Program-made: the position numbers and the translations under genes
The notes under the pieces: model-generated
Told to the model about the DNA's origin: nothing
Database searches by the model: none
The model's input: the letters and a program-made list of their open reading frames with translations, nothing else
In this document: positions 21,278-52,860 of the stretch, piece after piece
How the letters are laid out: the number at the start of each line of letters is the position of its first letter
How positions within the stretch are numbered: the stretch's first letter is position 1
Assembly (NCBI GenBank): GCA_965220175.1
Contig: OZ244814.1
Span: 300,992-364,991 of the forward strand
Origin: Chloroflexota bacterium
GTDB lineage: Bacteria > Chloroflexota > UBA11872 > VXOZ01
Length of the DNA: 64,000 nt
Reading direction: 5' to 3'

Positions 21278-23935
21278 TTGACACAATTAACAATAGTGTG
21301 GTGGTGTGTAGAAATGGGGAACCGACCCGTCGCGTCCTGGCTTATGGGCATTAGCGCTCACGTGATGCAAGCAATCGGCCACAGCGTCGTAGGGTGGCGC
21401 CCGCGAAATCGCTTGGGGCGTCAGGCGGTACGCGGCTGTGTCTTGCTCGTCGGCATGTTTGTCGTCGCCTGCGGTCCGCAGATAGCGCCGGGCAGCAACG
21501 TCGTCACGGACGCCGACTACGCCGCGTGCCTGGAGCAAATTCAAAACCAAGCGCTGCCGGCGACCAGCTACATTTACGACCGCCACGGCACCCTGCTCGC
21601 CACAGTCACCGATCCGGATGAGGGCCTGCGCATAGTTCTCGCATCCGAAGACATTCCTCTCGTCATCAAGCAGGCCACCATCGCTGCCGAGGACCGCTTC
21701 TTCTACCAGCACCCGGGCTACGACATGCGCGCCATTACCCGCGCCTGGGTCCAGAATCAACAGGCCGGCGAGGTCGTTTCCGGCGGCAGCACGATCACCC
21801 AGCAACTCGTCAAGAATATCTGTCTGACGCCGGAGCAGACGTATGACCGGAAGCTGCGCGAGATCAACCTCGCGGCGCGGCTGACGGCGCAGTTCAGCCG
21901 GGAATCCATCCTCACGTTCTACCTCAACAAGGTCTACTACGGCAGCCAGGCCTATGGCATCGAGGCCGCGGCCAACGTGTTCTTCGGCAAACAGGCAATA
22001 GACTTGACGCTGTCGGAAGCCGCCCTGCTTGCCGGCTTGACCCAGTCGCCCTCGCGCGACAATCCCTATACGAATGCCGACAGGGCGAAGGCCCGGCAGC
22101 GGTACGTGCTCGAGCAGATGGTGGTGGCCGGCTACATCACACCAGCCGAGCTGGAGGAGGCGTTCGAGGAGCCGTTGGAGTACAAGCGCAAGCAGCAAGA
22201 GGCAGCCGCAGGCGAGGATGGAGCAATCACAGAGGACGAGGAAGCTACGGATAGCACGGTGCTGGCGCCGCACTTCGTGCAATTCGTGCGGAACCAGCTA
22301 GCGGAGCATTATGGAGCCGAGCGCGTTCGTCAGGGCGGTTTGCATGTGTACACCACGCTCGATCTGAATATGCAAAACATCGCGGAAGAAGCCGCACGAG
22401 AGCACATTGCTACTCTTGAAGGCTTCAACGTTTCAAACGCCGCCGTTGTAGCGATCAGACCCAAAAGCGGCGAAATCCTCACCATGGTCGGTAGCCTGGA
22501 CTTTCACGATGAAGACATCGACGGACAGGTGAACGTGGCATTAGCGCCGCGTCAGCCGGGTTCGGCCCTTAAACCGCTCTTCTACGCGGCGGCCTTCGAG
22601 AGAGGCTGGACGCCGGCCACCACGATCTGGGACGTCCCGACGGCAATTGCAATCCCCAACGAGCCCACCTATGCGCCGCGCAACTTCAGTGGAGAGTTTA
22701 AGGGCCCTGTCACCGTGCGCCATGCCCTGGCCAACTCCTTCAATGTCGCCGCGGTGCGCATGGGCCTCTTTCTCGGTCTCGAAACGGCTATCGACACCAT
22801 GCAGAGCCTGGGCATGACGACCTTTGAGGACCGCAGCCGCTTCGGCCCCAGCATTGTGCTCGGCGGCGGCGAGGTGAAGCTGCTGGAGTTGACGAATGCC
22901 TATTCCGTGCTGGCGCGCGGCGGCAGCTACATTCCCGTGTCCGCCATTCGGCGCGTGGTCGATGGCCGCGGCAATGTGCTGGAGCGCTATGAATATCCGG
23001 AAGTCCAAGACGTGTTCGATCCGCGCATTGCGTACCAGATCACCCATATCCTCTCCGACAGCAAGACGCGGGCAGCGGAGTTTGGACCGTGGACGCCGCT
23101 CGATCTCAGCCGCCCTGCCGCGGCCAAGACCGGAACCACCGACGATAACCGTGACGGCTGGACGATTGGCTACACGCCGCAACTCGTCACCGGCGTTTGG
23201 GTGGGAAATTCCGACGGGACGCCTACGTGGAACCTGACCGGCATGCGCGGAGCGACGCCCATCTGGAATGCTTTCATGGAAGCGGCGCTTGCCGACACGC
23301 GGGTGCTTAGCTTTGAAGAGCCGAGGGGACTGGTGGAGGTGGAGGTCTGCACGCAAACCGGCTTGCTGCCAACGCCGTATTGCGGGCCGACCCACAGCGA
23401 GATCTTCCTTAAGGAAAACGTCCCGCGGCTGGTAGACAACATTTTCGTGCCGTTCCGCGTGCACAAGGAATCCGGTCTGCGCGCCGGCCCCAACGTGCCG
23501 GCCTCGCAGACAGAGGTGCGCGTCTTCATGGTCGTGCCGGAAGAAGCACAAGAGTGGGCCGCCGCGGAAGCAGTGGCGGTGGCGCCCACCGAGGAACACA
23601 GCCTGCCGCCGGATGATCCCGTGATCATTCTGCATCCCCGCGACGGCGATACCGTGCGCAGTATCCTGGAAATTCGCGGCAATGCGTTCTTCCCGGGATT
23701 CCAGTCGTACGAAGTATCCTATGCCGGGCAAGCCAACCCGGACATGTGGGTGCGCATCAGGTACTCTACGGAGCCAACCGCCAATGACGTGTTGGCGGCA
23801 TGGGACACGGCGCAGAATCCCGATGGCGTGTACACCGTGCGCCTGATCGGACAGGATGCCGATGGGGGACAGAGAGTGCGCATGGTGACGTTTGCGATTC
23901 AGAATTCCGAAGTGGCGGCGGACGGCGAAGAATAG
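21278..23935 (+). CDS. class A penicillin-binding protein (PBP1A-type transglycosylase/transpeptidase)
   Basis: GT51 motifs EDRFFYQHPG and GGSTITQQLVKN. Transpeptidase SxxK (SALKP). N-terminal TM segment. 885 aa with C-terminal extension. Confidence 0.85.
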   Translation: MTQLTIVWWCVEMGNRPVASWLMGISAHVMQAIGHSVVGWRPRNRLGRQAVRGCVLLVGMFVVACGPQIAPGSNVVTDADYAACLEQIQNQALPATSYIYDRHGTLLATVTDPDEGLRIVLASEDIPLVIKQATIAAEDRFFYQHPGYDMRAITRAWVQNQQAGEVVSGGSTITQQLVKNICLTPEQTYDRKLREINLAARLTAQFSRESILTFYLNKVYYGSQAYGIEAAANVFFGKQAIDLTLSEAALLAGLTQSPSRDNPYTNADRAKARQRYVLEQMVVAGYITPAELEEAFEEPLEYKRKQQEAAAGEDGAITEDEEATDSTVLAPHFVQFVRNQLAEHYGAERVRQGGLHVYTTLDLNMQNIAEEAAREHIATLEGFNVSNAAVVAIRPKSGEILTMVGSLDFHDEDIDGQVNVALAPRQPGSALKPLFYAAAFERGWTPATTIWDVPTAIAIPNEPTYAPRNFSGEFKGPVTVRHALANSFNVAAVRMGLFLGLETAIDTMQSLGMTTFEDRSRFGPSIVLGGGEVKLLELTNAYSVLARGGSYIPVSAIRRVVDGRGNVLERYEYPEVQDVFDPRIAYQITHILSDSKTRAAEFGPWTPLDLSRPAAAKTGTTDDNRDGWTIGYTPQLVTGVWVGNSDGTPTWNLTGMRGATPIWNAFMEAALADTRVLSFEEPRGLVEVEVCTQTGLLPTPYCGPTHSEIFLKENVPRLVDNIFVPFRVHKESGLRAGPNVPASQTEVRVFMVVPEEAQEWAAAEAVAVAPTEEHSLPPDDPVIILHPRDGDTVRSILEIRGNAFFPGFQSYEVSYAGQANPDMWVRIRYSTEPTANDVLAAWDTAQNPDGVYTVRLIGQDADGGQRVRMVTFAIQNSEVAADGEE

Positions 23936-27386: not shown

Positions 27387-28745
27387 TCAGGCAGTAGATT
27401 CCGTTTCTTCTCCCTCCTCCGATTGAGCCTTTTCGCTCCGGTATTCCTCCAAGCATTCAATGACAATCCTGTTGATCTCAGGGAACTGGCCTTGGGCGAA
27501 ATCATCGAGTCTGCCTGAAATGGTCCGGCGAATCCTCTCCTCGTCCCACCAGTGCTCGTAGTCCGAACTCTCCAGAATGCCCCGCTTAAAGGGCAGTTCG
27601 ATGTAGTCTTCGGAATACCCTGGCAGCGGGCCTTTGAACATCCCGGGGTCTGCCTTGACACGATCGAGTAGCCTTTTCTTCAGATCCTCAGGGCCTCTCT
27701 TGGCAAAGACAAGGAACAGGCCCGCCGCGTTGTTCGTGACACGAACCTGAAAAAGCAGTAGGCTGTGAGGCCAACAGTCAATCTTGAGCTCCTCGTATCT
27801 GTCCCAATCGGTGGAGACAAACCGGGCGTACGGACGATTGCTCGTGCCTTTCTTCCATTCCTTGTGCTTGCTGACCTCCTCGCCCACCATGTGGTATCCC
27901 TCGCTCACGTAGTTGGGCTCGTACCGGTCCCGGTGCTCGATTATGAGATCGATGGCCTTCTTATGTTTCCGGTAGATTTTACGGGCCAGCTCGTGTACAT
28001 CGTCGCTGACTTCGGGCACGATATTTCTCCTTAATGTGATCGCGTATTGACGCAGCGCGGCGGCAACGTCCTGGTGAACAGCGGCGCCCTTTGCCTCGAT
28101 TGTCCGGTCAAGTATTCGCCGAATGCGCGAGTAGTCAAGCGTAGTCCAATGGTCCCATTCCGTTGCGTTTTCGGGCATGTCCCCTCTCGGCGTGAGAAAC
28201 ACCAGGCGCATCGTGTAGTCTGGGTAATGCTCCTTGAGCGCCTGCCGGTAGAAGGCCAGTTGATTGCCGCTTTCCGGCGACCACACTTTGTTTTCCACCG
28301 CGCACAGGAATCCGGCTTGCTCGTTGTGGATGCAGATGTCCAACCGGCCGCTTTCCCCGTCAAGTTCGAGGTTTTGCTCCCGGCACACCGTGGTGCTAAT
28401 CCGGGCGCCGGCGCGGGCGGCGCCGATTTCGACAAGGAACTCCCTGAGGAAATAATCGTCAAGGCCGTGATTGTCTCCAGGGCGCAGCAGCCAGGCGAGG
28501 AAATCGGAATGAAATTTTTCGATATCAACCAATCCCAAGGTCCTGAAGACGTCCACCTCCTCTTGCCACTTTGGAATCATAGCCGCTAACCGCGCCAGAT
28601 CCTCTCCGTCCTCCGCCAAGCGCCGCAAGGACCGGTGGGCCGCTTCATTCTCAAGAATGAAGAGTTGCTCAAGGTCTCCTAGGTCGTTCTGAAGCTCTTC
28701 TAAAGCGCCAGTCAGCTCGGAGCTTAGACTGCCGTCAGTCGCCAT
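27387..28745 (-). CDS. PD-(D/E)XK nuclease superfamily protein (about 450 aa) in a locally low-GC patch
   Basis: LDICIHNEQAGFLCAVENKVW contains a D...E-x-K restriction-endonuclease-like motif in the N-terminal half. Long C-terminal region of unknown function. Start taken at MATDGS (the ORF could start 29 codons earlier). Confidence 0.55.
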   Translation of the reverse strand: MATDGSLSSELTGALEELQNDLGDLEQLFILENEAAHRSLRRLAEDGEDLARLAAMIPKWQEEVDVFRTLGLVDIEKFHSDFLAWLLRPGDNHGLDDYFLREFLVEIGAARAGARISTTVCREQNLELDGESGRLDICIHNEQAGFLCAVENKVWSPESGNQLAFYRQALKEHYPDYTMRLVFLTPRGDMPENATEWDHWTTLDYSRIRRILDRTIEAKGAAVHQDVAAALRQYAITLRRNIVPEVSDDVHELARKIYRKHKKAIDLIIEHRDRYEPNYVSEGYHMVGEEVSKHKEWKKGTSNRPYARFVSTDWDRYEELKIDCWPHSLLLFQVRVTNNAAGLFLVFAKRGPEDLKKRLLDRVKADPGMFKGPLPGYSEDYIELPFKRGILESSDYEHWWDEERIRRTISGRLDDFAQGQFPEINRIVIECLEEYRSEKAQSEEGEETESTA

Positions 28746-28995
28746 AGCATTCTCATTTGTAAAGAGATAAATACGTGCGAGGAAGGATGTGACGAGTCTG
28801 CCAAATCCCCGTTTCAGGCAGGAGTATATCACTCACGCACAGTGAGCGGAGGAATTCCCGTGATCTGAACTTACCAGTTTTAGGCAATAGTGCGCCGGTC
28901 GTTGGTCACGACCCGGAGACCCGCTGGCATTTGACCTGCGAGCGGTGCTCAACCTGAAACGGCTGGCTCCCATTGCGTGGTTTGCAAAGAGGCTC

Positions 28996-37195: not shown

Positions 37196-38938
37196 CTAGC
37201 AATCGCTCATGATCGGCTGAGCGCTCTGCGCAACGCGCGCGATGGCGTCCAACTTCTCGCCTATTTCGGGATCGATTTCGTCCTGCGGCACAAATTCGGC
37301 CAACTCGTAGAAGGCTTTCTTGCGCATGAGGTTGGGCAAACTGAGGTGCCGAAAGTAGGCTTCGAACACCGGCCTAAGGAAGTCGTCGCTCGCCTTAATG
37401 TCAGAGTCCCACGGCGAGCCCAAGCCTAGAGTGCGCAACGCTTCTGCGATATTGGCAACGGCTGCGCGCATTGCCTCAAGCCGTCGCGGGACTTCAGCGC
37501 GCGCAAACAAGGGGCCAGGCGCGTCAGACTCCGCCGTACTTTGTGCGTAGGCCTCCAGTGTCGCTTGGGAACAAAGGTAGTTTTCAATCTCGCGCCGCTG
37601 CCAGGTTAGCCGCTCAACCTGACCGGTCTCGGGCGTACCGGAGTCTGGGCGGTCGAAGAGCGCGACGCCTTTTAGATGCGGCAGCGCCTCCCTGAGTCCG
37701 TGAAAGTGATGCGGTACTGCTGAAGCGTTGTTGCCAACGTAGTGCACGTAGGGACGTTCCAGGGCACGACCCGCCTCTGCGTGTCCAAGGCGTCGCGCGA
37801 ATGCCTGTAAGATCGAGAGGTCTGTGGATCCCTCCAAGTAGAGCACCCAGCCCGTCTGCTTCGCCTGATAGTAGTGTTCGAAGCCAATGTCCTTTGGGGA
37901 CTTCAAGAGTTGACTACCCTGGTCGTCGATGCGGTGGGGCTCTCCAATGAACGCGATCACCATATCCTTGCCGGCAGCCTCGTCGAGCAGCACTTCAGAG
38001 TGGCTGGCTGCGATGATCTGGCTACCGCTGGCGGTAGCGGCGTCAGTGATGAGGCGATAGATTTGGCGCTGCCTCAAGATTTCAAGGTGTGCGTCCGGCT
38101 CATCCAGCATGAGCACTGCACCTGGATTGGCATACATATAGGCCAAAATGAGCAGAGTCTGCTGGAGACCCCGTCCGCTGGATGATAGGTCTAGCGTGAC
38201 ATCATGTTCACGATAGCTCATGGCAATCTCACCACGCTCCGTGATGTACCGGGGCGGCTCAATGTGCACACCAAACAAGCTGCGAATCTGAGCAGTTAGC
38301 TCCTGCCAAGCCTCAGAGTGTTCCTCGTAGATACCGTAGCAGAGATTTCGCAATACCTCCGCCGTACGTCCCTCGCCTACACGTACAGTCACCGCCCCAG
38401 GGTCTAGCCGTGTTTCTGTAGCAGCAAGACCGGACATTGGTGGCAAGAACGCAACCTGCACACTGCCAGCCGCTTCTGGTACCGGCATTCTTTCGGCCGT
38501 GCTGGTATTGGTTTCTCGCAATGGGCGGCAATAGAATGATTCCTCGTTGGCGTAGTCAAACTCCAGCCCACAGGTCCACGGTTGATCGTCAGTGACGCCC
38601 TCCACGATGACATCGATCCGCACGTTCTGGGTTTGCTGCTTGCCGTTCTCTATGCGCACGTCTCGCGAATGTAGTCCGTGCCACAAGAGACGTGCACTCG
38701 GCACCGGAATGGCAACAAGGTCTCGTCGATTGACAGTTACACCAGGTCGCTTTTCTGGCGCGCCCTTGCCCCGACGCTTCTCATTCCATCGTTTCAGCCC
38801 AACGTCCCAAAGCGCCAGCGCCTGCATGGCTGAGGTCTTGCCCGAGTTGTTGGGGCCGATGAACGCCACCGGGCTGCCAAGCTCGATCTCCACCTCGTCA
38901 AAGCGCTTGAAGTTGCGGATGGTGAGTTTAGTCAGCAT
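37196..38938 (-). CDS. OLD-family / PARIS-like ABC-ATPase fused to a C-terminal TOPRIM-like (DUF4435-like) nuclease domain
   Basis: Walker A FIGPNNSGKTS at the N-terminus. Walker B VLMLDEPDAHLE about 300 aa downstream (split ABC ATPase as in OLD/AriA/GajA). C-terminal WVLYLEGSTD ... ALFDRPDSG resembles the TOPRIM glutamate and DxD motifs. Start taken at MLTKLTIRNF; the ORF extends to 39016. Confidence 0.6.
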   Translation of the reverse strand: MLTKLTIRNFKRFDEVEIELGSPVAFIGPNNSGKTSAMQALALWDVGLKRWNEKRRGKGAPEKRPGVTVNRRDLVAIPVPSARLLWHGLHSRDVRIENGKQQTQNVRIDVIVEGVTDDQPWTCGLEFDYANEESFYCRPLRETNTSTAERMPVPEAAGSVQVAFLPPMSGLAATETRLDPGAVTVRVGEGRTAEVLRNLCYGIYEEHSEAWQELTAQIRSLFGVHIEPPRYITERGEIAMSYREHDVTLDLSSSGRGLQQTLLILAYMYANPGAVLMLDEPDAHLEILRQRQIYRLITDAATASGSQIIAASHSEVLLDEAAGKDMVIAFIGEPHRIDDQGSQLLKSPKDIGFEHYYQAKQTGWVLYLEGSTDLSILQAFARRLGHAEAGRALERPYVHYVGNNASAVPHHFHGLREALPHLKGVALFDRPDSGTPETGQVERLTWQRREIENYLCSQATLEAYAQSTAESDAPGPLFARAEVPRRLEAMRAAVANIAEALRTLGLGSPWDSDIKASDDFLRPVFEAYFRHLSLPNLMRKKAFYELAEFVPQDEIDPEIGEKLDAIARVAQSAQPIMSDC

Positions 38939-39067
38939 TGGTAACCATCGTGTTCTTTCATTCAGCCTCGCAATTCTGCACTTCGCGGAAGATCGGCTTT
39001 CGCAGCAGTGTACCACTCGGCGCAGGGCGACCGAATGGCGTAGCGACCGCCAAATGCCAAGTCATCG

Positions 39068-41794: not shown

Positions 41795-43105
41795 AAGTTA
41801 ATTTAGGGACCTGCAGCAAGGTAGTCCTGCCACGGTGTGCCGCGCCGGACGATGGCGTTGAGTTGCAGGAGCATTTTGCGCATTACCGCCACCAGGGCGA
41901 CTTTGCCCGGCTTACCCCGCTGGCGCAGACCTTGGTAGAAGCGCTGCAGGCTGTTGTCCTGGCGGATAGCAGACAAGGCGGCGAGGTAGAGAGCGCGGCG
42001 CACGACGCCCCGGCCGCCGCGGATGGCGCGATAGCCGCGCTGCTGTCCGCTGTCCCGTGACCACGGTGCGAGACCTGCCAGCGCGGTCAAGGCCTTACCG
42101 GAGAGCTGACCGAGTTCGGGGAGGAAGGCGGTGAGGATGGCGGCGGTCAAGTCGCCGACGCCGCGCATGCTGCCGAGCAGTTGGGCGCGCTGGCGCAGGT
42201 GCTGGCTGCGCTGCAGGGTCGCTTGATACTGCTGGTCCAGCCGTTCTATCTCCTTATCCAGCCAGCGGATGTGGCGTGTGACGGAGCATTGGCTAACGGA
42301 GGAGAGGCCTTTGTCCAGACGGTTCTGTTCCTGCACACGTTGCTTGACGAGTTGCTGGCGGCGCTGCAGCACATCTTGGAGCTGTTCACGTTCCGGGGAG
42401 GGCGCCGGAAGGTCCTCCAGCGCCATCACAGCGCCGTACCGGGCGAGCACCTGCGCATCCAGGCGATCGGTCTTCGCTTCCTTGCCACAGGCGCGGGCAA
42501 AGGCCCGCACCTTGTTGGGATGCGCCACCTCCACTGAGGGCAGCGCCGTGTGCAGACGCTTTACCACTTGGCGCTCATACCCGCCGGTCGGCTCACACAC
42601 TGCCACCGTGACGCCTGCAGCTTGCAGCCAACGCACCAGGGCGGTGATACCCACCGTGGTGTTCGCGAAACGCCGCACGGGGCCGCCCGCTACCGACACA
42701 TCGAGTTGCGCTTTCCCAACATCGATCCCTGCCACAACTTTCATCCCGCTCTCCTTCCTGGCATACTGGTGGTGTCCTCCACACTTGCAGATGCGGGCCA
42801 TTGGTCTGCCCAGGTATCTGTTCGGAGCGACATTCTGGCGCGAGGGGTGTCGTACTCCGGCGCGATGCAGCCAGGCCACTGCCTCGGCTCACCTAATGAC
42901 GGACGACGCGCCCCTCGCGTTGCCACTCAACTTCGCTCATTTGCCCGCCTTTTTCAACATACAAATGACGGAAAGAGGAGCGCGCGAGGCCTTGCAAGTG
43001 CGAATCGACAGCAGATTCTGCCAACGAATTACTCAACACTTGCACCAATGACCAAAACGTCAACTCTCCCTGTTGGAAGGCGATTCCATCAACGCATTGC
43101 ACAAC
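41795..43105 (-). mobile_element. IS110-family insertion sequence (~1.3 kb, approximate boundaries) flanked by family A repeat modules
   Basis: DEDD-type transposase gene inside. No clear terminal IRs, as expected for IS110. A family A half-module (TTCCCGCTTTCACGGGAATC) lies at 43113..43132 on the far side. Confidence 0.5.
41803..42744 (-). CDS. IS110-family transposase
   Basis: MKVVAGIDVGKAQLDVSV start with GGAAGGAGAG RBS. C-terminal region typical of IS110/IS1111 transposases. Confidence 0.85.
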   Translation of the reverse strand: MKVVAGIDVGKAQLDVSVAGGPVRRFANTTVGITALVRWLQAAGVTVAVCEPTGGYERQVVKRLHTALPSVEVAHPNKVRAFARACGKEAKTDRLDAQVLARYGAVMALEDLPAPSPEREQLQDVLQRRQQLVKQRVQEQNRLDKGLSSVSQCSVTRHIRWLDKEIERLDQQYQATLQRSQHLRQRAQLLGSMRGVGDLTAAILTAFLPELGQLSGKALTALAGLAPWSRDSGQQRGYRAIRGGRGVVRRALYLAALSAIRQDNSLQRFYQGLRQRGKPGKVALVAVMRKMLLQLNAIVRRGTPWQDYLAAGP

Positions 43106-47397: not shown

Positions 47398-49362
47398 ATG
47401 GCAGAATTTCAGCAGAAACACTATGACGCAATTGTGGTCGGCGCGGGTCACGCGGGCTGCGAGGCTGCCTTGGCGGCGGCGCGCATGGGTTGCGCGACGC
47501 TGGTCGTAACGGGTGACCGCGACCGCATCGCCTTTATGCCCTGCAATCCCTCGATCGGCGGCCCAGCCAAGGGACATCTCGTACGCGAGATCGATGCCCT
47601 AGGCGGCGAAATGGGCAAGAACACCGACCGCACTTTGATACAGATTCGCTTGCTCAACAGCAGCAAGGGCCCCGCGGTACAGGCGCTGCGCGCCCAGTCC
47701 GATAAACACCTCTACGCCCAGGCCATGCGGCAGGTCTTGGAGAGTGAAGCGAACATCGCCATTCATGACGGCCTGGTAGAAGACCTGCTCACGAGCGAAG
47801 GCGCCGGCAAGCGCCGGCGTGTTACCGGTGTACAGACCAAGGCAGGGCGCACGTTTCACGCGCAGACCGTGGTCTTGACTACCGGCACCTTTTTGCAGGG
47901 CATGCTGATAACGGGAGAGAAGCGCATCGGCGGCGGGCGCGCGGGTGAAGCGCCCGCGCAGGGCCTATCCCATGCCCTGCGACGCCTCGGCTTTCGGCTG
48001 CGCCGCCTCAAGACCGGCACCCCGCCGCGCGTGCTGGCGGAGAGCATTGACTTCGCGCTGACCACACCGCAGCCCGGTTCCCCACAGCCCCTGCAGTTCT
48101 CCTTTACTCCTTTGCGAGCGGAAGAAATCCGGCGCGACGAACCGGACCCGGTCTATCCCTTTCAAGTTGAAACGCCCTGGCGCCGGCAGATGGTCTGCTA
48201 TCTGGTGCACACCAATCCGGCGACTCACGACGTGATTCGCGAGAACCTCCACCGCGCGCCCATGTTCAACGGCGCTATCAGTGGTGTGGGGCCCCGCTAC
48301 TGTCCCTCCATCGAAGACAAGATCGTGCGCTTTGCGCACAAGGACTCCCACCAGCTCTTTCTGGAACCGGAAGGGTTCACCACGCATGAGGTGTATGTGC
48401 AGGGCGCGAACACGAGCTTGCCTGAAGATGTGCAAGCGGACATGCTGCGCACCGTTCCCGCCCTCCTGCATGCAGAAATCGCCCGCCATGGCTACGCGGT
48501 GGAGTATGATCACGTCGTTACGGACCAAACCAACGTCACGTTGGAAGCCAAAGCGGTCAAAGGCCTCTTCTTTGCGGGACAAATCAACGGCACGTCCGGC
48601 TATGAAGAGGCGGCGGCACAGGGCCTGATCGCCGGCATCAATGCCGCTCGCCGCGTGCAAGGCAAACCGGCTATCGTGCTGGGACGCGATCAGGCGTACA
48701 TCGGCGTGATGCTGGATGACCTCGTGAGCCAAGAACACCGGGAACCGTACCGCCTCTTCACGTCCCGCGCCGAGTATCGACTACTGCTGCGCCACGACAA
48801 CGCCGACCTTCGCCTGACACCTCTCGGCTATGAAATCGGCCTCATTGGCGCGGCACACTACGCACGGGTCGCAGCGAAGCGTGAGCACATTACGCGTGCG
48901 ATGGAGCGTCTCCGCAGCTACTCGATATCGCCCTCGCCTCAGGTGAACGCTACGTTGACGGCGGCAGGCGTACAACCGCTTCGCAGCCAGACCAAGGCCC
49001 TGAGTCTCCTGCAACGCCCGCACGCGCGGTACCAGGATGTAGCCGCACTCATGGGCGAACGAGTAGATGAACTTGACGGTGATACTGTCGCTCAGATCGA
49101 ACTGGAGGCGCGCTATGCGGGGTACGTGGAACGGCAACAGTCGCAGGTGCGCAAGATGGCCCGCATGGAGGCCATGGAACTTCCGCAGGCATTCGACTAC
49201 GAGCAACTTCCCTCCCTGCGGGTGGAAGCGCGCCAGAAGCTCATGCAGTTCCAGCCGCGCACCATCGGGCAGGCCGCCCGGATCGCCGGCGTCACGCCGG
49301 CAGACATTGCCGTACTCATGGTGCACGTCCACCGCAGAACGGAAGAAGCAACGGCACGGTGA
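47398..49362 (+). CDS. mnmG: tRNA uridine-5-carboxymethylaminomethyl modification enzyme MnmG (GidA)
   Basis: YDAIVVGAGHAGCEAALAAARMG FAD motif and full-length GidA layout (654 aa). Confidence 0.9.
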   Translation: MAEFQQKHYDAIVVGAGHAGCEAALAAARMGCATLVVTGDRDRIAFMPCNPSIGGPAKGHLVREIDALGGEMGKNTDRTLIQIRLLNSSKGPAVQALRAQSDKHLYAQAMRQVLESEANIAIHDGLVEDLLTSEGAGKRRRVTGVQTKAGRTFHAQTVVLTTGTFLQGMLITGEKRIGGGRAGEAPAQGLSHALRRLGFRLRRLKTGTPPRVLAESIDFALTTPQPGSPQPLQFSFTPLRAEEIRRDEPDPVYPFQVETPWRRQMVCYLVHTNPATHDVIRENLHRAPMFNGAISGVGPRYCPSIEDKIVRFAHKDSHQLFLEPEGFTTHEVYVQGANTSLPEDVQADMLRTVPALLHAEIARHGYAVEYDHVVTDQTNVTLEAKAVKGLFFAGQINGTSGYEEAAAQGLIAGINAARRVQGKPAIVLGRDQAYIGVMLDDLVSQEHREPYRLFTSRAEYRLLLRHDNADLRLTPLGYEIGLIGAAHYARVAAKREHITRAMERLRSYSISPSPQVNATLTAAGVQPLRSQTKALSLLQRPHARYQDVAALMGERVDELDGDTVAQIELEARYAGYVERQQSQVRKMARMEAMELPQAFDYEQLPSLRVEARQKLMQFQPRTIGQAARIAGVTPADIAVLMVHVHRRTEEATAR

Positions 49363-51095
49363 GTGGTTAGCCAACCAAACGCGAACGCCGCCCGGCTCTT
49401 CTCAGCGGTATGTGCCGTCGCAGGATGCAGCAGTGCCCCCGCGCTTAAGAAGAGAATAGCGCGAGCACGCGCTCGCGCTTCACATCTTGCGTCGTGTCTG
49501 GGTCAAGATCTGCGAACGCCTCAGGAAGAAGAGTTTTCCCGATATTGGCAAACTCAGCCGGGACGTACAGCCCGGCTGAAACCGCAATGCAACGGGGATT
49601 CACCGCAGGTATGCAGTCTCGCTGCATTTCGCGCAGCAGGTGCCTTGAGCATCACCTGCACAGTCAGCAACGGTGCTCAATTGTATGCCGCTACCATGGA
49701 ATGGCAATGGCTGTGACTGTAGTATTGCAGGCGTGCGGCTGAGGAATCTTAGTGGAAACAGGGCTATTCCACTAGTGCCGGCGACGCAAGCGAGAGCCGC
49801 CTACAGTACCCGCATCAGCCTGGAACTCGGCACAGAAAACAGAGTATTCACTGCTGTACAATTCTCCTTATGCCACGATGCCACTTTACGGCAATGACCG
49901 TACCGCAAAGGTTTAGTTTCTGGTTGCGGTTTCCTAGTTAACCACACTGCCTTTCCACGTGTCAACCGCCCATTCCTGCCGGTCAGGAGCCCACTTCTTG
50001 CGTTACCATCCAACCGGAATCCGATCGTTCCTGGGCCCTTTTTCAGGCTATTTGACCGGTGTAATTCCGCCTCCCACTCATGCTATGACTCTGCCAAGTC
50101 GCTGCCGGGAAGACAGATTCCGTCTGGAAATCCGTGTGGGAGCGCGGGCGGCTACCTGCGTGATCTCCCCATCAAGTCGAGAGGTAATGGGCCCTAGACT
50201 CCGTGCTATCCCTCCTCAGTTCTGTGCTGCCATTGACCGCTGGCGGTCACACCACGCCGCAGCACTTATCCAATTCCGGTGGGCTTTTCCCAAATTTGAC
50301 TACCAAGTAAACCACAGTGCCTTTGAACGTGTCAAACGCGACCGGAACTACCTCACTCCGCTCCCGGCAACGGATTCTGCATACGGCGATATACCGCAAC
50401 CTGCCCACGGCTATCCTTGGGTAACGCCCGCCAATGGCGCTGAACAGAGCGGGTGCGGAACTCCGGCGCACGCTTCAAACCACCGCCCGGCACCCGCAGC
50501 AAGAGTTCCTGGCTTGGCATCCACTGACCGTTACTTCGCTACAGAGGGACCCTCCCGTGCCTGCCCTTAGCCGCCGGCAGCTGCCCTTTGACCGCGTATT
50601 CGCGGCCATCATCTGCGTACCCGCAGCAGTCTTCTGCGTACCTGAAACACTCTACGACTGCGTGTCGCTTCCACCCTTGCAGCGACTGTTTTCTTGCAGC
50701 CAAGGCCACACCGAAACGCTTTGGCACTCAGCTACGGCCCCCAGTAAACCACACCTTTATACCAAGTGTCAAACACTCAAAGGGAGCTTGCCACGTACGT
50801 CTCCACAGAGACGGGTGACTGTGTACTTGTGGTATGGCGGCGTTACTCCTTGGGTTGCCGCGGAAGCATGCGCGCAGGCGCAGCAACGCGTAGCATAGGA
50901 ATGGCTGCTGCCTCCATCGGGTTCTGACACATCCTTGTCAATCCTAAGCCTAAGACTGCACCCAAGCCATTGAAAGCCTGCTGTTACGGACGTAACCAAG
51001 CAGCCCTATCGCCGGCATGGCCAGGCGCTTCGTGGAAAAAGGACGGTTGCCCCGGCATAGTTTGTGGCGCCGGGAGTCAATCTGCGTGGTGCCCT
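49363..51095. other. 1.7-kb noncoding region between convergent mnmG and ABC-2 permease genes, with three spaced copies of a ~30-bp motif
   Basis: No ORF with protein-like composition. Motif copies: TAACCACACTGCCTTTCCACGTGTCAACCGCC (49941..49972), TAAACCACAGTGCCTTTGAACGTGTCAAACGCG (50308..50340), TAAACCACACCTTTATACCAAGTGTCAAACACT (50746..50778). Copy 2 contains the palindrome TTTGA-N5-TCAAA. Confidence 0.45.
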
Positions 51096-52361
51096 CTAGG
51101 CGGCGTGGCGAATGGCCAGCCAGAGACCGCGGAGGCTCATGCGTTGGCCGTAGATGAGGATGCCGGCGCGGAAGACGCGGGCGGCAAGCCAGAGCATGGC
51201 GAGACCGCTGCCAAACGTCACGATCAGGCTCAGGGCAACTTCCCAGAACGCCACGTCCGTCACCCCTAGTCGTATCATCATGGTGGCGGGAGCAGTGAAG
51301 GGGATAAAAGTGAGTATCCGCGCAAACACACCGTTCGGTGCGAGCGAAATCAGCGCGGAGAGAACCAGCGGCGCCAGAGCGGGAAGCAATACGATGCTGG
51401 ACAGTGAAGACGCCTCCCGCGCGGACACCGTAGCCGCGCTAAGGCCCGCCATGACAACGGCAAAGACGAAGTAGCCTGCCAGGAAGAAGACAACAATCGC
51501 CGCCGCCAACCCCGGCGCCAGCGAGAGATCACCAATCTCCGGAAAGGCGCTCACGATGCGCGGCACCCCAATTGCCGCCGAAACCAGCCAGATGCCGACC
51601 TGCAGCAGTCCGGTAGCGCCCAATCCCAGCACCTTGCCGGTCATCAATCCCAGCGGCGATACCGACGTCAAGAGCACCTCAACGACGCGGTTTTCCTTCT
51701 CCTCCGAAACACTCTGCAGCAGGGCGCCGCTCACCATGTAGATAACCATGATCATGATCCACGCCGACAGGAACGGCACGGTGAAGAACGTGAGGACTTG
51801 CCCCTCTTCTTCGGCTGCTACCTCACCTTCGCGCGAGACTTCGAAACGCGTGAGATTCAGCGGGAAAAGGATGCGCTCAATGCGTTCGGCGGAAAGATCA
51901 GAGGCCGTCAGCGCCTGCAACACCAGAGCGCGCATGCGGTCTTCGCTCTCATCCCCCGCTATGAGGCTGCTCAAGCCGCTATCGGTATGCAGCCACTCGA
52001 TGCGGCCGGTCTGCAGGAAGTCTGCGGGAATAATGAAGAGATCGTCCGCAGCCCCATCCTGCAAGGCCGCCAGACCGGCCGCGCGATCTGCGAGAACCTG
52101 GAACGAGTCTGAGTCCGCAACGGCAAAGTTCAGCTCGGCAGACTCATTGACTACCGCTATCACTCTCCCGGTATCGGTCGCCCCGGCGCTCTCACCATCA
52201 TCTGCCAGAAATCCGCGCACCAGGGGTACCGCGAGCGCCAGCACAAGCAGAATGACGACCGGCGTAACGGTGATGATAAGGTATTGCTTGCGGCGGATCT
52301 GTCGCCGCACTTCCTCAGTTAAGACAATCCTGGTTTCTGACAAGAGTTTCTGCATGCGCAC
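51096..52361 (-). CDS. ABC-2 family transporter permease (paralog 2)
   Basis: N-terminal TM helix, large extracytoplasmic loop, then five C-terminal TM helices, typical of ABC-2 exporters. Paralogous to 52861..54135. Confidence 0.7.
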   Translation of the reverse strand: MRMQKLLSETRIVLTEEVRRQIRRKQYLIITVTPVVILLVLALAVPLVRGFLADDGESAGATDTGRVIAVVNESAELNFAVADSDSFQVLADRAAGLAALQDGAADDLFIIPADFLQTGRIEWLHTDSGLSSLIAGDESEDRMRALVLQALTASDLSAERIERILFPLNLTRFEVSREGEVAAEEEGQVLTFFTVPFLSAWIMIMVIYMVSGALLQSVSEEKENRVVEVLLTSVSPLGLMTGKVLGLGATGLLQVGIWLVSAAIGVPRIVSAFPEIGDLSLAPGLAAAIVVFFLAGYFVFAVVMAGLSAATVSAREASSLSSIVLLPALAPLVLSALISLAPNGVFARILTFIPFTAPATMMIRLGVTDVAFWEVALSLIVTFGSGLAMLWLAARVFRAGILIYGQRMSLRGLWLAIRHAA

Positions 52362-52539
52362 ATCAGTGAGTCGCTAGATTGGGAACTCCGTTCACTCTGC
52401 CTGCAAGCGACACTGCTCTTAATCTGAAAAGGAGGGACTGATCAATCGCAGTAATCGGCACACGTATTTGCTTGGAGTGCTCGCCATTCTTGGCGGGGAA
52501 CTTCGATGCACTCTCAACTACATGACAGATCGAGGCTAT

Positions 52540-52773
52540 CTATCGCGATAGCAACTCCAGAGCGGCGAGAATCGCCACGCCCGCCGCGACCATACCTCCC
52601 AGACGCAGCGTCAATCGCAACTCTAGCTCACGCAGTCGGGCATCTAAGTGATCTTTGGTCACCAACGCGCCAAAGCCTTCCTTTCCCACATCCAGCAGGG
52701 CTTGGGCTTGGCGCTCGGTAAACCCAGCTTCCACGAGCGTCGTAAATGCCTTGTGCGTGTCGAATACCGCCAT
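52540..52773 (-). CDS. DUF1640-like small coiled-coil / TM protein
   Basis: MAVFDTHKAFTTLVEAGFTERQAQAL... then a coiled-coil and a C-terminal hydrophobic helix. Sits between the two permease paralogs. Confidence 0.45.
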   Translation of the reverse strand: MAVFDTHKAFTTLVEAGFTERQAQALLDVGKEGFGALVTKDHLDARLRELELRLTLRLGGMVAAGVAILAALELLSR

Positions 52774-52860
52774 CGGTTTTGCCCCCTCGCTTCACGCGGG
52801 TTCATCCCGTCACTACGTATTGTACGGGATACCGGCCTTGCTATGTACTTCACCAGATGC

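What the first reader, a model, noticed from the sequence alone, without database searches (positions are those of the whole stretch)
49363..51095. 1.7-kb gene-free region downstream of mnmG with three spaced copies of a conserved ~30-bp motif
Between the convergent ends of mnmG and an ABC-2 permease gene there is an unusually long noncoding stretch for this gene-dense genome. ORF calls inside it have non-protein-like composition.

Three copies of TAAACCACA(S)TGCCTTT(S)(M)ACGTGTCAA(M)CGC occur about 370 and 440 bp apart (49941, 50308, 50746). The third is degenerate.

Copy 2 contains a TTTGA-N5-TCAAA palindrome around an ACGTG core. Nearby sequence is weakly similar between units (TCCTTGGGTAACGCCCGCC at about 50395 versus TCCTTGGGTTGCCGCGG at about 50840).

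Three explanations are possible:
- a decayed tandem duplication
- iteron-like or regulator binding sites
- a long structured ncRNA

mnmG/gidA and parA classically neighbour oriC. I did not find convincing TTATCCACA-type DnaA boxes, though TAAACCACA differs from that consensus at two positions.
Basis: seen in the sequence. Interest (0 to 1): 0.6.

Follow-up and report, generated by a model that had tools for sequence, protein, structure and literature searches.

The report
Three conserved promoters in noncoding spacer
The 1.7-kb gap after mnmG is real non-coding DNA, and its repeated 30-bp motif, read on the other strand, is a near-consensus bacterial promoter that is kept in three copies across related sponge/coral-associated Chloroflexota. 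It most likely drives short sibling non-coding RNAs, so it is a candidate new small-RNA locus and not a replication origin.

Summary
The gap 49363-51095 lies between mnmG and an ABC-2 permease. It is non-coding and holds three copies of the motif, where shuffles give none.

Read on the minus strand, the motif is TTGACAC-N12-TGTGGTTWACT. That gives a perfect -35 TTGACA, an 18-nt spacer, an extended -10 TG and a -10 TTWACT.

I found 41 copies in 16 related Chloroflexota genomes. All lie on the strand of the ABC operon. The hexamers and the TG are invariant while the spacer varies.

Conservation runs only downstream of the motif. It covers about 82 nt after promoter 1 in all array-bearing genomes and about 137 nt in close relatives. 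It is shorter after promoters 2 and 3.

The rest of the gap diverges at the neutral rate: 22%, against 22.5-22.9% at 4-fold sites in the flanking genes.

No Rfam or Pfam match was found. The small ORF after promoter 1 is not conserved. There is no cluster of DnaA boxes, no parS, no dnaA and no GC-skew turn.

Best reading: two to three paralogous, separately promoted small non-coding RNA genes. Expression, RNA ends and targets are untested. RNA structure has no covariation support.

oriC, a long structured RNA and a pseudogene are not supported.

The parts
49936..49965 (-). Promoter-like element P1: TTGACAC-GTGGAAAGGCAG-TGTGGTTAACT (-35 TTGACA, 18-nt spacer, extended -10 TG, -10 TTAACT). Inferred start of transcription near 49930.
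   Evidence: It has an orthologue in every array-bearing relative, and the hexamers are invariant.
50306..50335 (-). Promoter-like element P2: TTGACAC-GTTCAAAGGCAC-TGTGGTTTACT. Inferred start near 50299.
50743..50772 (-). Promoter-like element P3: TTGACAC-TTGGTATAAAGG-TGTGGTTTACT. Inferred start near 50736.
49854..49935 (-). Unit 1 conserved transcribed segment, 82 nt. It contains the invariant GGTACGGTCATTGCC (49890-49904) and ends in GCATAAGGAGAA-TTG-TACAG (49854-49873), a Shine-Dalgarno-like element followed by NTG.
   Evidence: It is conserved at 76-87% in all array-bearing genomes whose flanks are otherwise unalignable. nhmmer finds a single copy per locus.
49798..49853 (-). Extension of unit 1, conserved only in the closer subclade. 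It includes the pyrimidine tract CTCTGTTTTCTGTG (49831-49844), which can pair with the AAGGAGA element.
   Evidence: There is one compensatory change (in L183), and folding stability is not above shuffles.
50211..50305 (-). Unit 2 conserved 5' segment. It contains GACCGCCAGCGGTCAATGG (50230-50248) and GAGGAGG (50211-50217). It is a paralogue of unit 1.
   Evidence: W vs L001 identity is 86-94% here, against about 74% nearby.
50727..50742 (-). Unit 3 conserved initial transcribed bases (GGKGCCGTRGCYGA). The sequence beyond them diverges fast.
49458..49479 (.). G+C-rich inverted repeat (AGCGCGAGC-GCGT-GCTCGCGCT) between unit 1 and the end of mnmG. It is terminator-like on the minus strand and could serve both converging transcripts.
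   Evidence: Its function is inferred.
51034..51074 (-). Hairpin CCCGGC...GCCGGG followed by a T-run just after the ABC-2 stop codon. It is a possible end of the ABC operon transcript, upstream of the array.
   Evidence: Read from the sequence. The terminator scan did not call it. Weak.
49360..49390 (+). Remnant of the start of a DUF3105 gene. Relatives carry it intact, overlapping the mnmG stop; it is deleted in this genome.
47398..49362 (+). mnmG (flanking gene, converging on the array).
51096..52361 (-). ABC-2 permease, the last gene of an ABC operon on the same strand as the array.

Best explanation
The gap carries a tandem array of three independent minus-strand transcription units. Each is headed by a near-consensus sigma70-type promoter: -35 TTGACA, an 18-nt spacer, an extended -10 TG and a -10 TTWACT. 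The units sit just downstream of an ABC-2 transporter operon, on the same strand, and point toward the 3' end of mnmG.

The units arose by duplication of a 'promoter plus roughly 100-150 nt' module. They most likely produce short sibling non-coding RNAs.

Unit 1 is the ancestral and best-conserved unit. Its RNA would be about 82 nt conserved in all array-bearing genomes and about 137 nt in close relatives. It is conserved in sequence rather than in structure (GGUACGGUCAUUGCC and GCAUAAGGAGAAGUGUACAG). That fits a base-pairing or protein-binding regulatory RNA better than a structural RNA.

Shown: the motif, its bipartite conservation, its single orientation, the downstream-only conservation, non-coding status, neutral drift of the remainder, and presence in 16 genomes.

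Inferred: that RNA polymerase initiates there, the transcript ends, and any trans-acting function.
For: 1. Motif and chance. Three copies are found where shuffles give 0.00.

2. Conservation inside the motif. There are 41 copies (35 distinct contexts) in 16 genomes. TTGAC, the TG(G) and T25, T26, A28, T30 are invariant or nearly so, while the 12 central positions vary freely. The spacing is fixed, apart from one copy that is 1 nt shorter (L013).

3. Orientation. All 41 copies lie on the strand of the ABC operon.

4. Asymmetry. The block conserved in distant relatives covers 49854-49969/74. That is 82 nt on the downstream (minus-strand) side of P1 and only 4-9 nt on the other side.

5. Non-coding. 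There is no codon periodicity and indels are not multiples of three. No Pfam hit appears in six frames. The ORF starting at the conserved NTG is 17-72 aa long, frameshifted between relatives, and carries 9 of 9 non-synonymous changes between W and L001.

6. Neutral background. W vs L001 divergence in the gap is 22%, against 22.5% and 22.9% at 4-fold sites of mnmG and ABC-2. Islands of 86-94% identity lie at and just downstream of the promoters.

7. Paralogy. Units 1 and 2 share CGGTCAWTG and RAGGAG at similar offsets.

8. Minimal loci. L184 and L186 have gaps of only 404-425 bp, yet keep two promoters 137-164 nt apart plus the unit 1 segment.

9. Behaviour of the pattern elsewhere. In unrelated metagenome contigs about 31 of 51 distinct matches lie outside long ORFs. 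Fourteen have an SD plus ORF start downstream in the sense direction, against 7 in the reverse control. In this window TTGACAC-N12-TGTGG recurs once more, directly upstream of a class A penicillin-binding-protein gene.

10. From memory, not checked in a paper: the E. coli trp promoter has the same hexamers, TTGACA and TTAACT.
Against: - No expression data exist here, so initiation, strand and RNA ends are inferred.
- The -10 lacks the canonical A at -11 (TTWACT), so a housekeeping sigma is not certain.
- No canonical intrinsic terminator follows any unit.
- RNA structure has no statistical support. Folding z-scores are about -1 and there are 0 compensatory pairs in 13 sequences. The one SD:pyrimidine-tract helix rests on a single compensatory change and is not more stable than shuffles.
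- Units 2 and 3 are conserved only over their first 16-95 nt, so they could be decaying duplicates.
- Seven related genomes lack the array altogether and carry two protein genes at that site instead. The array is therefore dispensable.
- No target was found among neighbouring genes.
- The copies are related by descent, so the counts overstate independent evidence.
Confidence: 0.5

Rival explanations
1. The promoters are real, but the function lies in transcription itself and not in the RNAs. Candidate roles are cis-antisense transcription or transcriptional interference aimed at the converging mnmG/DUF3105 3' end, or insulation between converging operons. The transcribed sequence is then largely irrelevant.
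For: Most of what would be transcribed drifts at the neutral rate. All units point at the 3' end of the converging gene. In the minimal loci the unit 1 start lies only about 130-210 nt from the mnmG stop. No terminator follows the units.
Against: The 82 nt after P1 are conserved far above neutral, with two invariant blocks. A purely transcriptional role does not require that. The distance to the converging gene ranges from about 130 to about 900 nt. Relatives without the array keep mnmG.
Confidence: 0.15
2. The motif is a bipartite binding site for a regulator or an alternative sigma factor. In that case it is an operator, iteron or decoy array rather than a set of housekeeping promoters.
For: Two invariant blocks lie at a fixed distance. 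The -10 lacks A-11. A G just upstream of TTGACAC and a GG after ACT are also nearly invariant. The motif is confined to this locus within the roughly 340 kb of related sequence I held.
Against: The left block is exactly the -35 consensus. The right block has TG and T-7 at the proper distances. Conservation continues only on the 'transcribed' side. There is no dyad symmetry between the half-sites. The same pattern sits upstream of genes in unrelated bacteria.
Confidence: 0.12
3. Unit 1 is a small-protein gene: promoter, about 75 nt of leader, AAGGAG, then an NTG start. The other units are decayed copies of it.
For: The base before TG at the putative start is T, G or A in different genomes, and all three give valid start codons. 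An AAGGAG lies just upstream. An open frame of 17-72 codons follows in every genome.
Against: Only 2 nt separate AGGAG from the NTG. The peptide is not conserved beyond M-Y. The conserved block ends in mid-codon (AG|N, switching between Ser and Arg). Close relatives differ by frameshifts while the nucleotide sequence stays alignable. W and L001 differ by 9 changes, all non-synonymous.
Confidence: 0.07
4. The region is junk: a decaying tandem duplication or the remnant of lost genes, with no function.
For: The bulk is neutral. The site is variable: relatives hold two protein genes there instead, and the neighbouring DUF3105 gene is deleted here.
Against: The motif and the unit 1 segment stay 76-100% identical in genomes whose flanking non-coding DNA cannot be aligned. 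There is no residual similarity to the genes found at this site in relatives, and no Pfam signal in any frame.
Confidence: 0.06
5. The region is a replication origin, or another DnaA-, ParB- or Tus-type chromosome-maintenance site.
For: TGTGGTTAA is one mismatch from a DnaA box, and one copy in L186 reads TGTGGATAA. mnmG and parA are classical oriC neighbours.
Against: There is no enrichment of DnaA boxes, no parS, no turn in GC skew at the site and no dnaA in the window. AT-rich sequence is limited to a single 40-nt stretch at 35% G+C. The CA end of the would-be box varies. Boxes would be 370-437 bp apart. Some relatives lack the region entirely.
Confidence: 0.03

Closest known systems
Sibling small RNAs encoded in tandem, e.g. 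AbcR1/AbcR2 of Rhizobiales (PMC3712013; review of sibling sRNAs PMC4211561)
   Same: Two or three paralogous short non-coding units lie head to tail in one intergenic region. Each appears to have its own promoter, and the units diverge outside short conserved blocks.
   Different: There is no sequence or Rfam relationship. No terminators are recognised, and no expression or target data exist. The phylum is different (Chloroflexota). The nearby ABC-2 operon is only a positional coincidence so far.
Sigma70-type promoters with consensus -35, extended -10 and a weak -10, e.g. the E. coli trp promoter TTGACA/TTAACT (from memory; not found in the paper library)
   Same: The hexamers are identical (TTGACA, TTAACT). 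The spacer is within 17+/-1, and a TG lies one base upstream of the -10.
   Different: The spacer is 18 nt. The organism's sigma factors and promoter rules are uncharacterised. The A at -11 is missing. No transcription start has been mapped.
Small RNAs with their own promoter at the 3' end of an operon, such as DapZ and MicL (from memory)
   Same: The array lies immediately downstream of, and on the same strand as, the last gene of an operon.
   Different: Here the promoters lie beyond the stop codon, in a long spacer, and there are several of them.
Bacterial oriC (DnaA-box cluster plus an AT-rich unwinding element)
   Same: It neighbours mnmG and parA, and contains a 9-mer one mismatch from a DnaA box.
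   Different: All defining features that could be tested here failed (see membership tests).

Membership tests
Sigma70-type promoter | -35 hexamer close to TTGACA | tested here: met
   TTGACA is 6/6 in all three window copies. TTGAC is invariant in 35/35 distinct contexts.
Sigma70-type promoter | Spacer of 17+/-1 bp between the hexamers, with fixed length and free sequence | tested here: met
   The spacer is 18 bp in 40 of 41 copies and 17 bp in one. The central 12 positions vary.
Sigma70-type promoter | -10 hexamer TATAAT-like, with A at -11 and T at -7 | tested here: inconclusive
   The hexamer is TTWAYT. T-12, A-9 and T-7 are invariant, but -11 is T. The consensus scan therefore did not call these sites.
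Sigma70-type promoter | Extended -10 TG one base upstream of the hexamer (compensates for a weak -10) | tested here: met
   TG is invariant in 35/35, while the two bases before it vary.
Sigma70-type promoter | Mapped transcription start 5-9 nt downstream | not testable with these tools
   No transcriptome data are available.
Trans-acting small RNA gene | Non-coding | tested here: met
Trans-acting small RNA gene | Intrinsic terminator, or a defined 3' end | tested here: not met
   No hairpin plus U-run follows any unit. The only calls are at 49458-49479 and 49382-49394.
Trans-acting small RNA gene | Conserved single-stranded seed and identifiable targets | tested here: inconclusive
   Invariant blocks exist. 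CGGTCAWTG is shared by units 1 and 2. There is no target signal in the 64 kb. The whole genome is not available.
Trans-acting small RNA gene | Detected as a discrete transcript | not testable with these tools
   No expression data.
Any curated RNA family (Rfam 15) | Covariance-model score at or above the gathering threshold | tested here: not met
   There are 0 hits in the window at gathering score. Only noise (at most 17.6 bits) appears in the region, and nothing falls inside the array in four relatives.
oriC | Cluster of DnaA boxes | tested here: not met
   There are 5 matches with up to 1 mismatch in 64 kb, against 5.5 expected, and only one lies in the region. The CA end of the would-be box varies between copies.
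oriC | AT-rich unwinding element | tested here: not met
   The lowest 40-nt G+C in the region is 35%, in a single short spot inside the unit 1 segment. The region mean is 57.5%.
oriC | Turn of cumulative GC skew; dnaA/dnaN nearby | tested here: not met
   Skew falls steadily from 40 to 58 kb with no turn at 49-51 kb. No Bac_DnaA domain was found among the scanned ORFs of 400 aa or more. The whole chromosome is not available, so this is a local test only.
parS / ParB site | 16-bp palindrome TGTTTCACGTGAAACA | tested here: not met
   There are 0 matches with up to 3 mismatches.
Iterons | Closely spaced direct repeats of 17-22 bp next to a rep gene | tested here: not met
   Spacing is 370 and 437 bp (137-490 bp in relatives). 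There is no rep gene, and the repeat is bipartite with a variable centre.
Pseudogene of a known protein | Residual protein similarity in some frame | tested here: not met
   Six-frame Pfam finds nothing at E up to 1. tblastn with the proteins that occupy this site in relatives finds nothing.

The most novel reading that the evidence does not exclude
The locus is a selected 'promoter-only' array. Two or three near-consensus promoters are kept invariant across species while most of what they transcribe drifts neutrally. The function would then lie in transcription itself. It could be antisense or collision control of the converging mnmG/DUF3105 transcripts, a topological or insulating barrier between converging operons, or titration of RNA polymerase or sigma. 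Alternatively the short conserved 5' segments form a new lineage-specific RNA class whose Shine-Dalgarno-plus-start-codon mimic engages ribosomes.
Probability: 0.12. Interest if true: 0.65.

Novelty: new member of a known kind. Interest (0 to 1): 0.38.

Why it matters
Almost nothing is known about promoters or regulatory RNAs in uncultivated, host-associated Chloroflexota. This locus gives a sharply defined promoter consensus for the clade, with -35, spacer length and extended -10 read directly from evolutionary conservation. It also gives a candidate family of sibling small RNAs that existing metatranscriptomes could test.

It shows as well that a repeat which looks like DnaA boxes or iterons on one strand can be an ordinary promoter on the other. 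The finding is a useful annotation result, not a surprise in kind.

Tried and rejected
- Rfam at gathering and at permissive thresholds, on the window and on four relatives: nothing.
- Pfam on internal ORFs and on all six frames: nothing.
- tblastn with the two proteins that fill this site in other relatives, and with the DUF3105 protein: no remnant of the former, and only the 30-nt start of the latter.
- DnaA-box and parS searches: at chance level.
- CsrB-like GGA enrichment on the minus strand: 33 GGA against 37 expected, so rejected.
- RNA structure of unit 1. Single-sequence folds give z about -1. RNAalifold on 9, 13 and 7 sequences, and explicit pair counts for a 5' hairpin and an SD hairpin, show no pair with changes on both sides in the 13-sequence set.
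- Target search by complementarity and RNAduplex against the translation start regions of nine neighbouring genes: nothing above background. The 9-mer CAATGACCG with up to 1 mismatch is twice as frequent as in shuffles (32 vs 16.5). This is probably codon composition, since ATGACC is a common gene start.
- Viral contig scan with the invariant 15-mer: 63 hits that match only the 15-mer itself, so chance.
- Possible extra degenerate promoter copies at 50910-50941 and 50473-50502: the resemblance is not above chance by my estimate, and the second is not conserved in L001. They are not counted.
- Look-up of the exact source contig: not on record.
- Literature searches for Chloroflexi sponge-symbiont sRNAs and for the trp promoter hexamers: no paper found.
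Full report
**1. What is there**

The window comes from a genome of about 61% G+C. Its closest relatives in public data are uncultivated Chloroflexota MAGs. Fifteen species-level genomes have mnmG proteins 82-94% identical to the window's. From my own knowledge of the isolate names, not tested here, these are sponge- and coral-associated.

mnmG ends at 49362 on the + strand. An ABC-2 permease, the last gene of a minus-strand ABC operon (ATPase plus two permeases), ends at 51096. The 1733 bp between them contain only ORFs without any Pfam match, and all six reading frames scanned with stops masked are also empty.

I compared the gap with the closest relative, L001. The gap is 78% identical, and mismatches fall evenly over the three codon phases (125/128/119). 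In mnmG the same count is 24/25/146. Indels in the gap have lengths 1, 1, 1, 1, 14 and 19. The region is therefore non-coding and is not a recognisable pseudogene.

They are far beyond chance, with 0.00 matches expected in shuffles.

**2. Reading the motif on the other strand**

On the minus strand the three copies read:
- TTGACAC-GTGGAAAGGCAG-TGTGGTTAACT
- TTGACAC-GTTCAAAGGCAC-TGTGGTTTACT
- TTGACAC-TTGGTATAAAGG-TGTGGTTTACT

This gives a perfect -35 hexamer, an 18-nt spacer, a TG one base before the second hexamer (an extended -10), and TTAACT or TTTACT as the -10.

The tool's consensus scan did not call these sites, because it demands an A at the second position of the -10. From memory, TTGACA and TTAACT are also the hexamers of the E. 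coli trp promoter. I could not find a paper in the library to cite for this.

**3. Comparative evidence**

The gap between mnmG and the ABC-2 permease is syntenic in all relatives.

- In the window and in L001, L002, L004, L005 and L006 it holds three copies of the motif.
- L013 and L014 hold two copies.
- A metagenome scan with the motif recovered one more true relative, L109, with three copies.
- Contigs fetched through homologues of the permease added seven more loci, L181-L187, with two or three copies each.

Altogether this is 41 copies (35 distinct contexts) in 16 genomes, and every one lies on the strand of the ABC operon.

Position by position, TTGAC, TGG, TT, A and the final T are invariant or nearly so. 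The twelve central positions and the flanks vary. The two bases just before the invariant TG read TG, TA or CG. That fits an extended -10. It does not fit a DnaA box, which would need those bases as the CA end of CCACA.

These copies are related by descent, so the counts are not independent. The informative point is the contrast between invariant blocks and a free spacer of fixed length.

**4. Direction**

In distant relatives the block that still aligns to the window is 49854-49969/74. That is the promoter, 82 nt on its minus-strand downstream side, and only 4-9 nt on the other side. Conservation that begins at the motif and continues in one direction is what a promoter with a functional transcript start looks like.

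**5. How much of the gap is constrained**

Four-fold degenerate sites diverge by 22.5% in mnmG and 22.9% in the permease between the window and L001. The gap as a whole diverges by 22%.

A 50-nt sliding comparison shows islands of 86-94% identity at 49783-49982, 50233-50332 and 50733-50782. Elsewhere identity is about 70-80%.

So the bulk of the 1.7 kb evolves like neutral sequence. Selection acts on the promoters and on short stretches just after them. This argues against a 1.7-kb structured RNA.

**6. The units**

*Unit 1.* Unit 1 is nearest mnmG and is the core. Its first 82 transcribed nucleotides are conserved in all array-bearing genomes. They contain the invariant blocks GGTACGGTCATTGCC and GCATAAGGAGAA-NTG-TACAG. 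In the closer subclade conservation runs about 55 nt further.

*Units 1 and 2 as paralogues.* Unit 2 shares CGGTCAWTG and an RAGGAG element with unit 1 at comparable offsets. In L004 the first 84 nt of the two units are 75% identical.

*Unit 3.* Unit 3 is conserved only for about 16 nt after the promoter. Some versions begin with a strong hairpin, for example L186 with z = -5.1.

*Minimal loci.* The minimal loci (L184 and L186, gaps of 404-425 bp) hold a unit-3-like and a unit-1 promoter 137-164 nt apart. This suggests an ancestral module of promoter plus roughly 110-130 nt, later duplicated and padded with drifting sequence.

**7. Coding or structure?**

*Coding.* The NTG after AAGGAG is TTG, GTG or ATG in different genomes, which looks like a start codon. 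Several things argue against translation of a conserved product:
- It lies only 2 nt after AGGAG.
- The open frames that follow are 17-72 codons long and share only M-Y.
- Close relatives differ by frameshifts while the nucleotides stay alignable.
- The window and L001 differ by nine changes, all non-synonymous.

I therefore regard it as non-coding.

*Structure.* Structure is not supported either. Folding energies are within about one standard deviation of shuffles. RNAalifold finds hairpins but essentially no compensatory changes. Explicit counts on 13 sequences show no pair with changes on both sides.

One longer helix pairs GGCAUAAGGAGA with a downstream pyrimidine tract (UUUUCUGUGCC). It has a single compensatory change, in L183, and the pairing recurs in the minimum-energy fold of most genomes. 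It is not more stable than shuffles, so it remains a lead only.

Conservation of sequence without structure fits a seed or protein-binding RNA, or an operator at the DNA level.

**8. What it is not**

- It matches no Rfam family in the window or in relatives.
- It is not oriC. DnaA boxes are at chance level, with only one in the region. There is no parS. Cumulative GC skew shows no turn at 49-51 kb. The only AT-rich spot is 40 nt at 35% G+C inside unit 1. No dnaA was found among the scanned large ORFs. Several relatives lack the region.
- It is not CsrB-like, since GGA is not enriched.
- It is not a remnant of the genes that occupy the site elsewhere.

**9. Distribution**

Seven relatives (L007-L012 and L015) have no array. 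At the same site they carry two plus-strand protein genes of about 467 and 429 aa.

On a neighbour-joining tree of the permease, array-bearing genomes form most of the clade. Array-less ones fall in at least three places (a single-gene tree, so treat it with caution).

The array is thus old and widespread in the group, but dispensable.

**10. Does the pattern behave as a promoter elsewhere?**

The metagenome scan returned 88 stretches. Apart from L109 these come from unrelated organisms, and part of them must be chance matches.

Of 51 distinct motifs, about 31 lie outside any ORF of 120 aa or more. Fourteen have a Shine-Dalgarno sequence plus an ORF start within 200 nt downstream in the sense direction, against seven in the reverse control. 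This is modest support.

Within the window, TTGACAC-N12-TGTGG occurs once more, at 21278. That is directly upstream of the ATG of a class A penicillin-binding-protein gene, at a distance that would make the mRNA leaderless.

**11. Verdict**

The best explanation is an array of two to three separately promoted, paralogous small non-coding transcription units downstream of an ABC-2 operon.

The closest analogy is sibling sRNAs encoded in tandem, such as AbcR1/AbcR2 (PMC3712013, PMC4211561). No homology to them is implied.

The promoter reading is well supported; I put it at roughly 0.75. That the products are functional trans-acting RNAs is inferred. The combined statement gets 0.5.

It is a new member of a known kind. 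It is of moderate interest, mainly for the biology of an uncultivated symbiont clade.

Noticed in passing
window 49360-49390; L001 7962-8549; L004 7962-8621; L181 7440-8021: Relatives carry a DUF3105 gene whose start overlaps the mnmG stop codon. In this genome only its first ~30 nt remain, and it is partly decayed in L002, L006, L008 and L009. This accounts for part of the 'empty' DNA next to mnmG.
   Followed up: partly
L007 8359-11052; L010 8839-11565 (same site as the array): In seven relatives the site between mnmG and the ABC-2 permease holds two plus-strand genes instead of the array. One encodes a ~467-aa multi-pass membrane protein and the other a ~429-aa protein. The site is a variable spot with two alternative contents.
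   Followed up: partly
window 21278-21316: TTGACAC-N12-TGTGGTGGTGT lies directly upstream of the ATG of a class A penicillin-binding protein (Transgly + Transpeptidase). The spacing would put the transcription start on the A of the ATG, giving a leaderless mRNA. It is the only other TTGACAC-N12-TGTGG in the window.
   Followed up: partly
L031-L035, L039, L043, L044, L048 and about 20 more loci from metagenomes JGI24021J15306, JGI24022J15233, JGI24158/9 and Ga0210059: A multi-copy element from an organism of about 40% G+C carries the same promoter pattern. It is followed by a conserved ~80-nt leader ending in TAAGGAGATAATTTACC, and it appears on dozens of different contigs. It is unrelated to the Chloroflexota locus, and I did not establish what it precedes.
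   Followed up: no
window 41803-42879 (-): An IS110-family transposase (DEDD_Tnp_IS110 + Transposase_20) lies 6.5 kb from the region. Any associated non-coding RNA was not examined.
   Followed up: no
window 52362-52860: There is a ~500-bp gap between the two ABC-2 permease genes. In L181 the same gap is ~100 bp, and in L183 and L187 an 88-aa ORF is called there. It contains a weak TTGACG-N..-TATGG site at 52614 on the minus strand.
   Followed up: no
L014 8500-8740 (minus strand): Two tandem ~120-nt repeats lie between the ABC-2 stop and the promoter array. Each contains ...GCAGGTTRCAAACCTGC... hairpins. They are absent from the window.
   Followed up: no
window 27387-28832 (-) and 37196-39016 (-): A PD-(D/E)XK nuclease family protein (PDDEXK_4) and a 606-aa AAA_15/AAA_21 ATPase. 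These domains are common in anti-phage defence systems. Not examined further.
   Followed up: no
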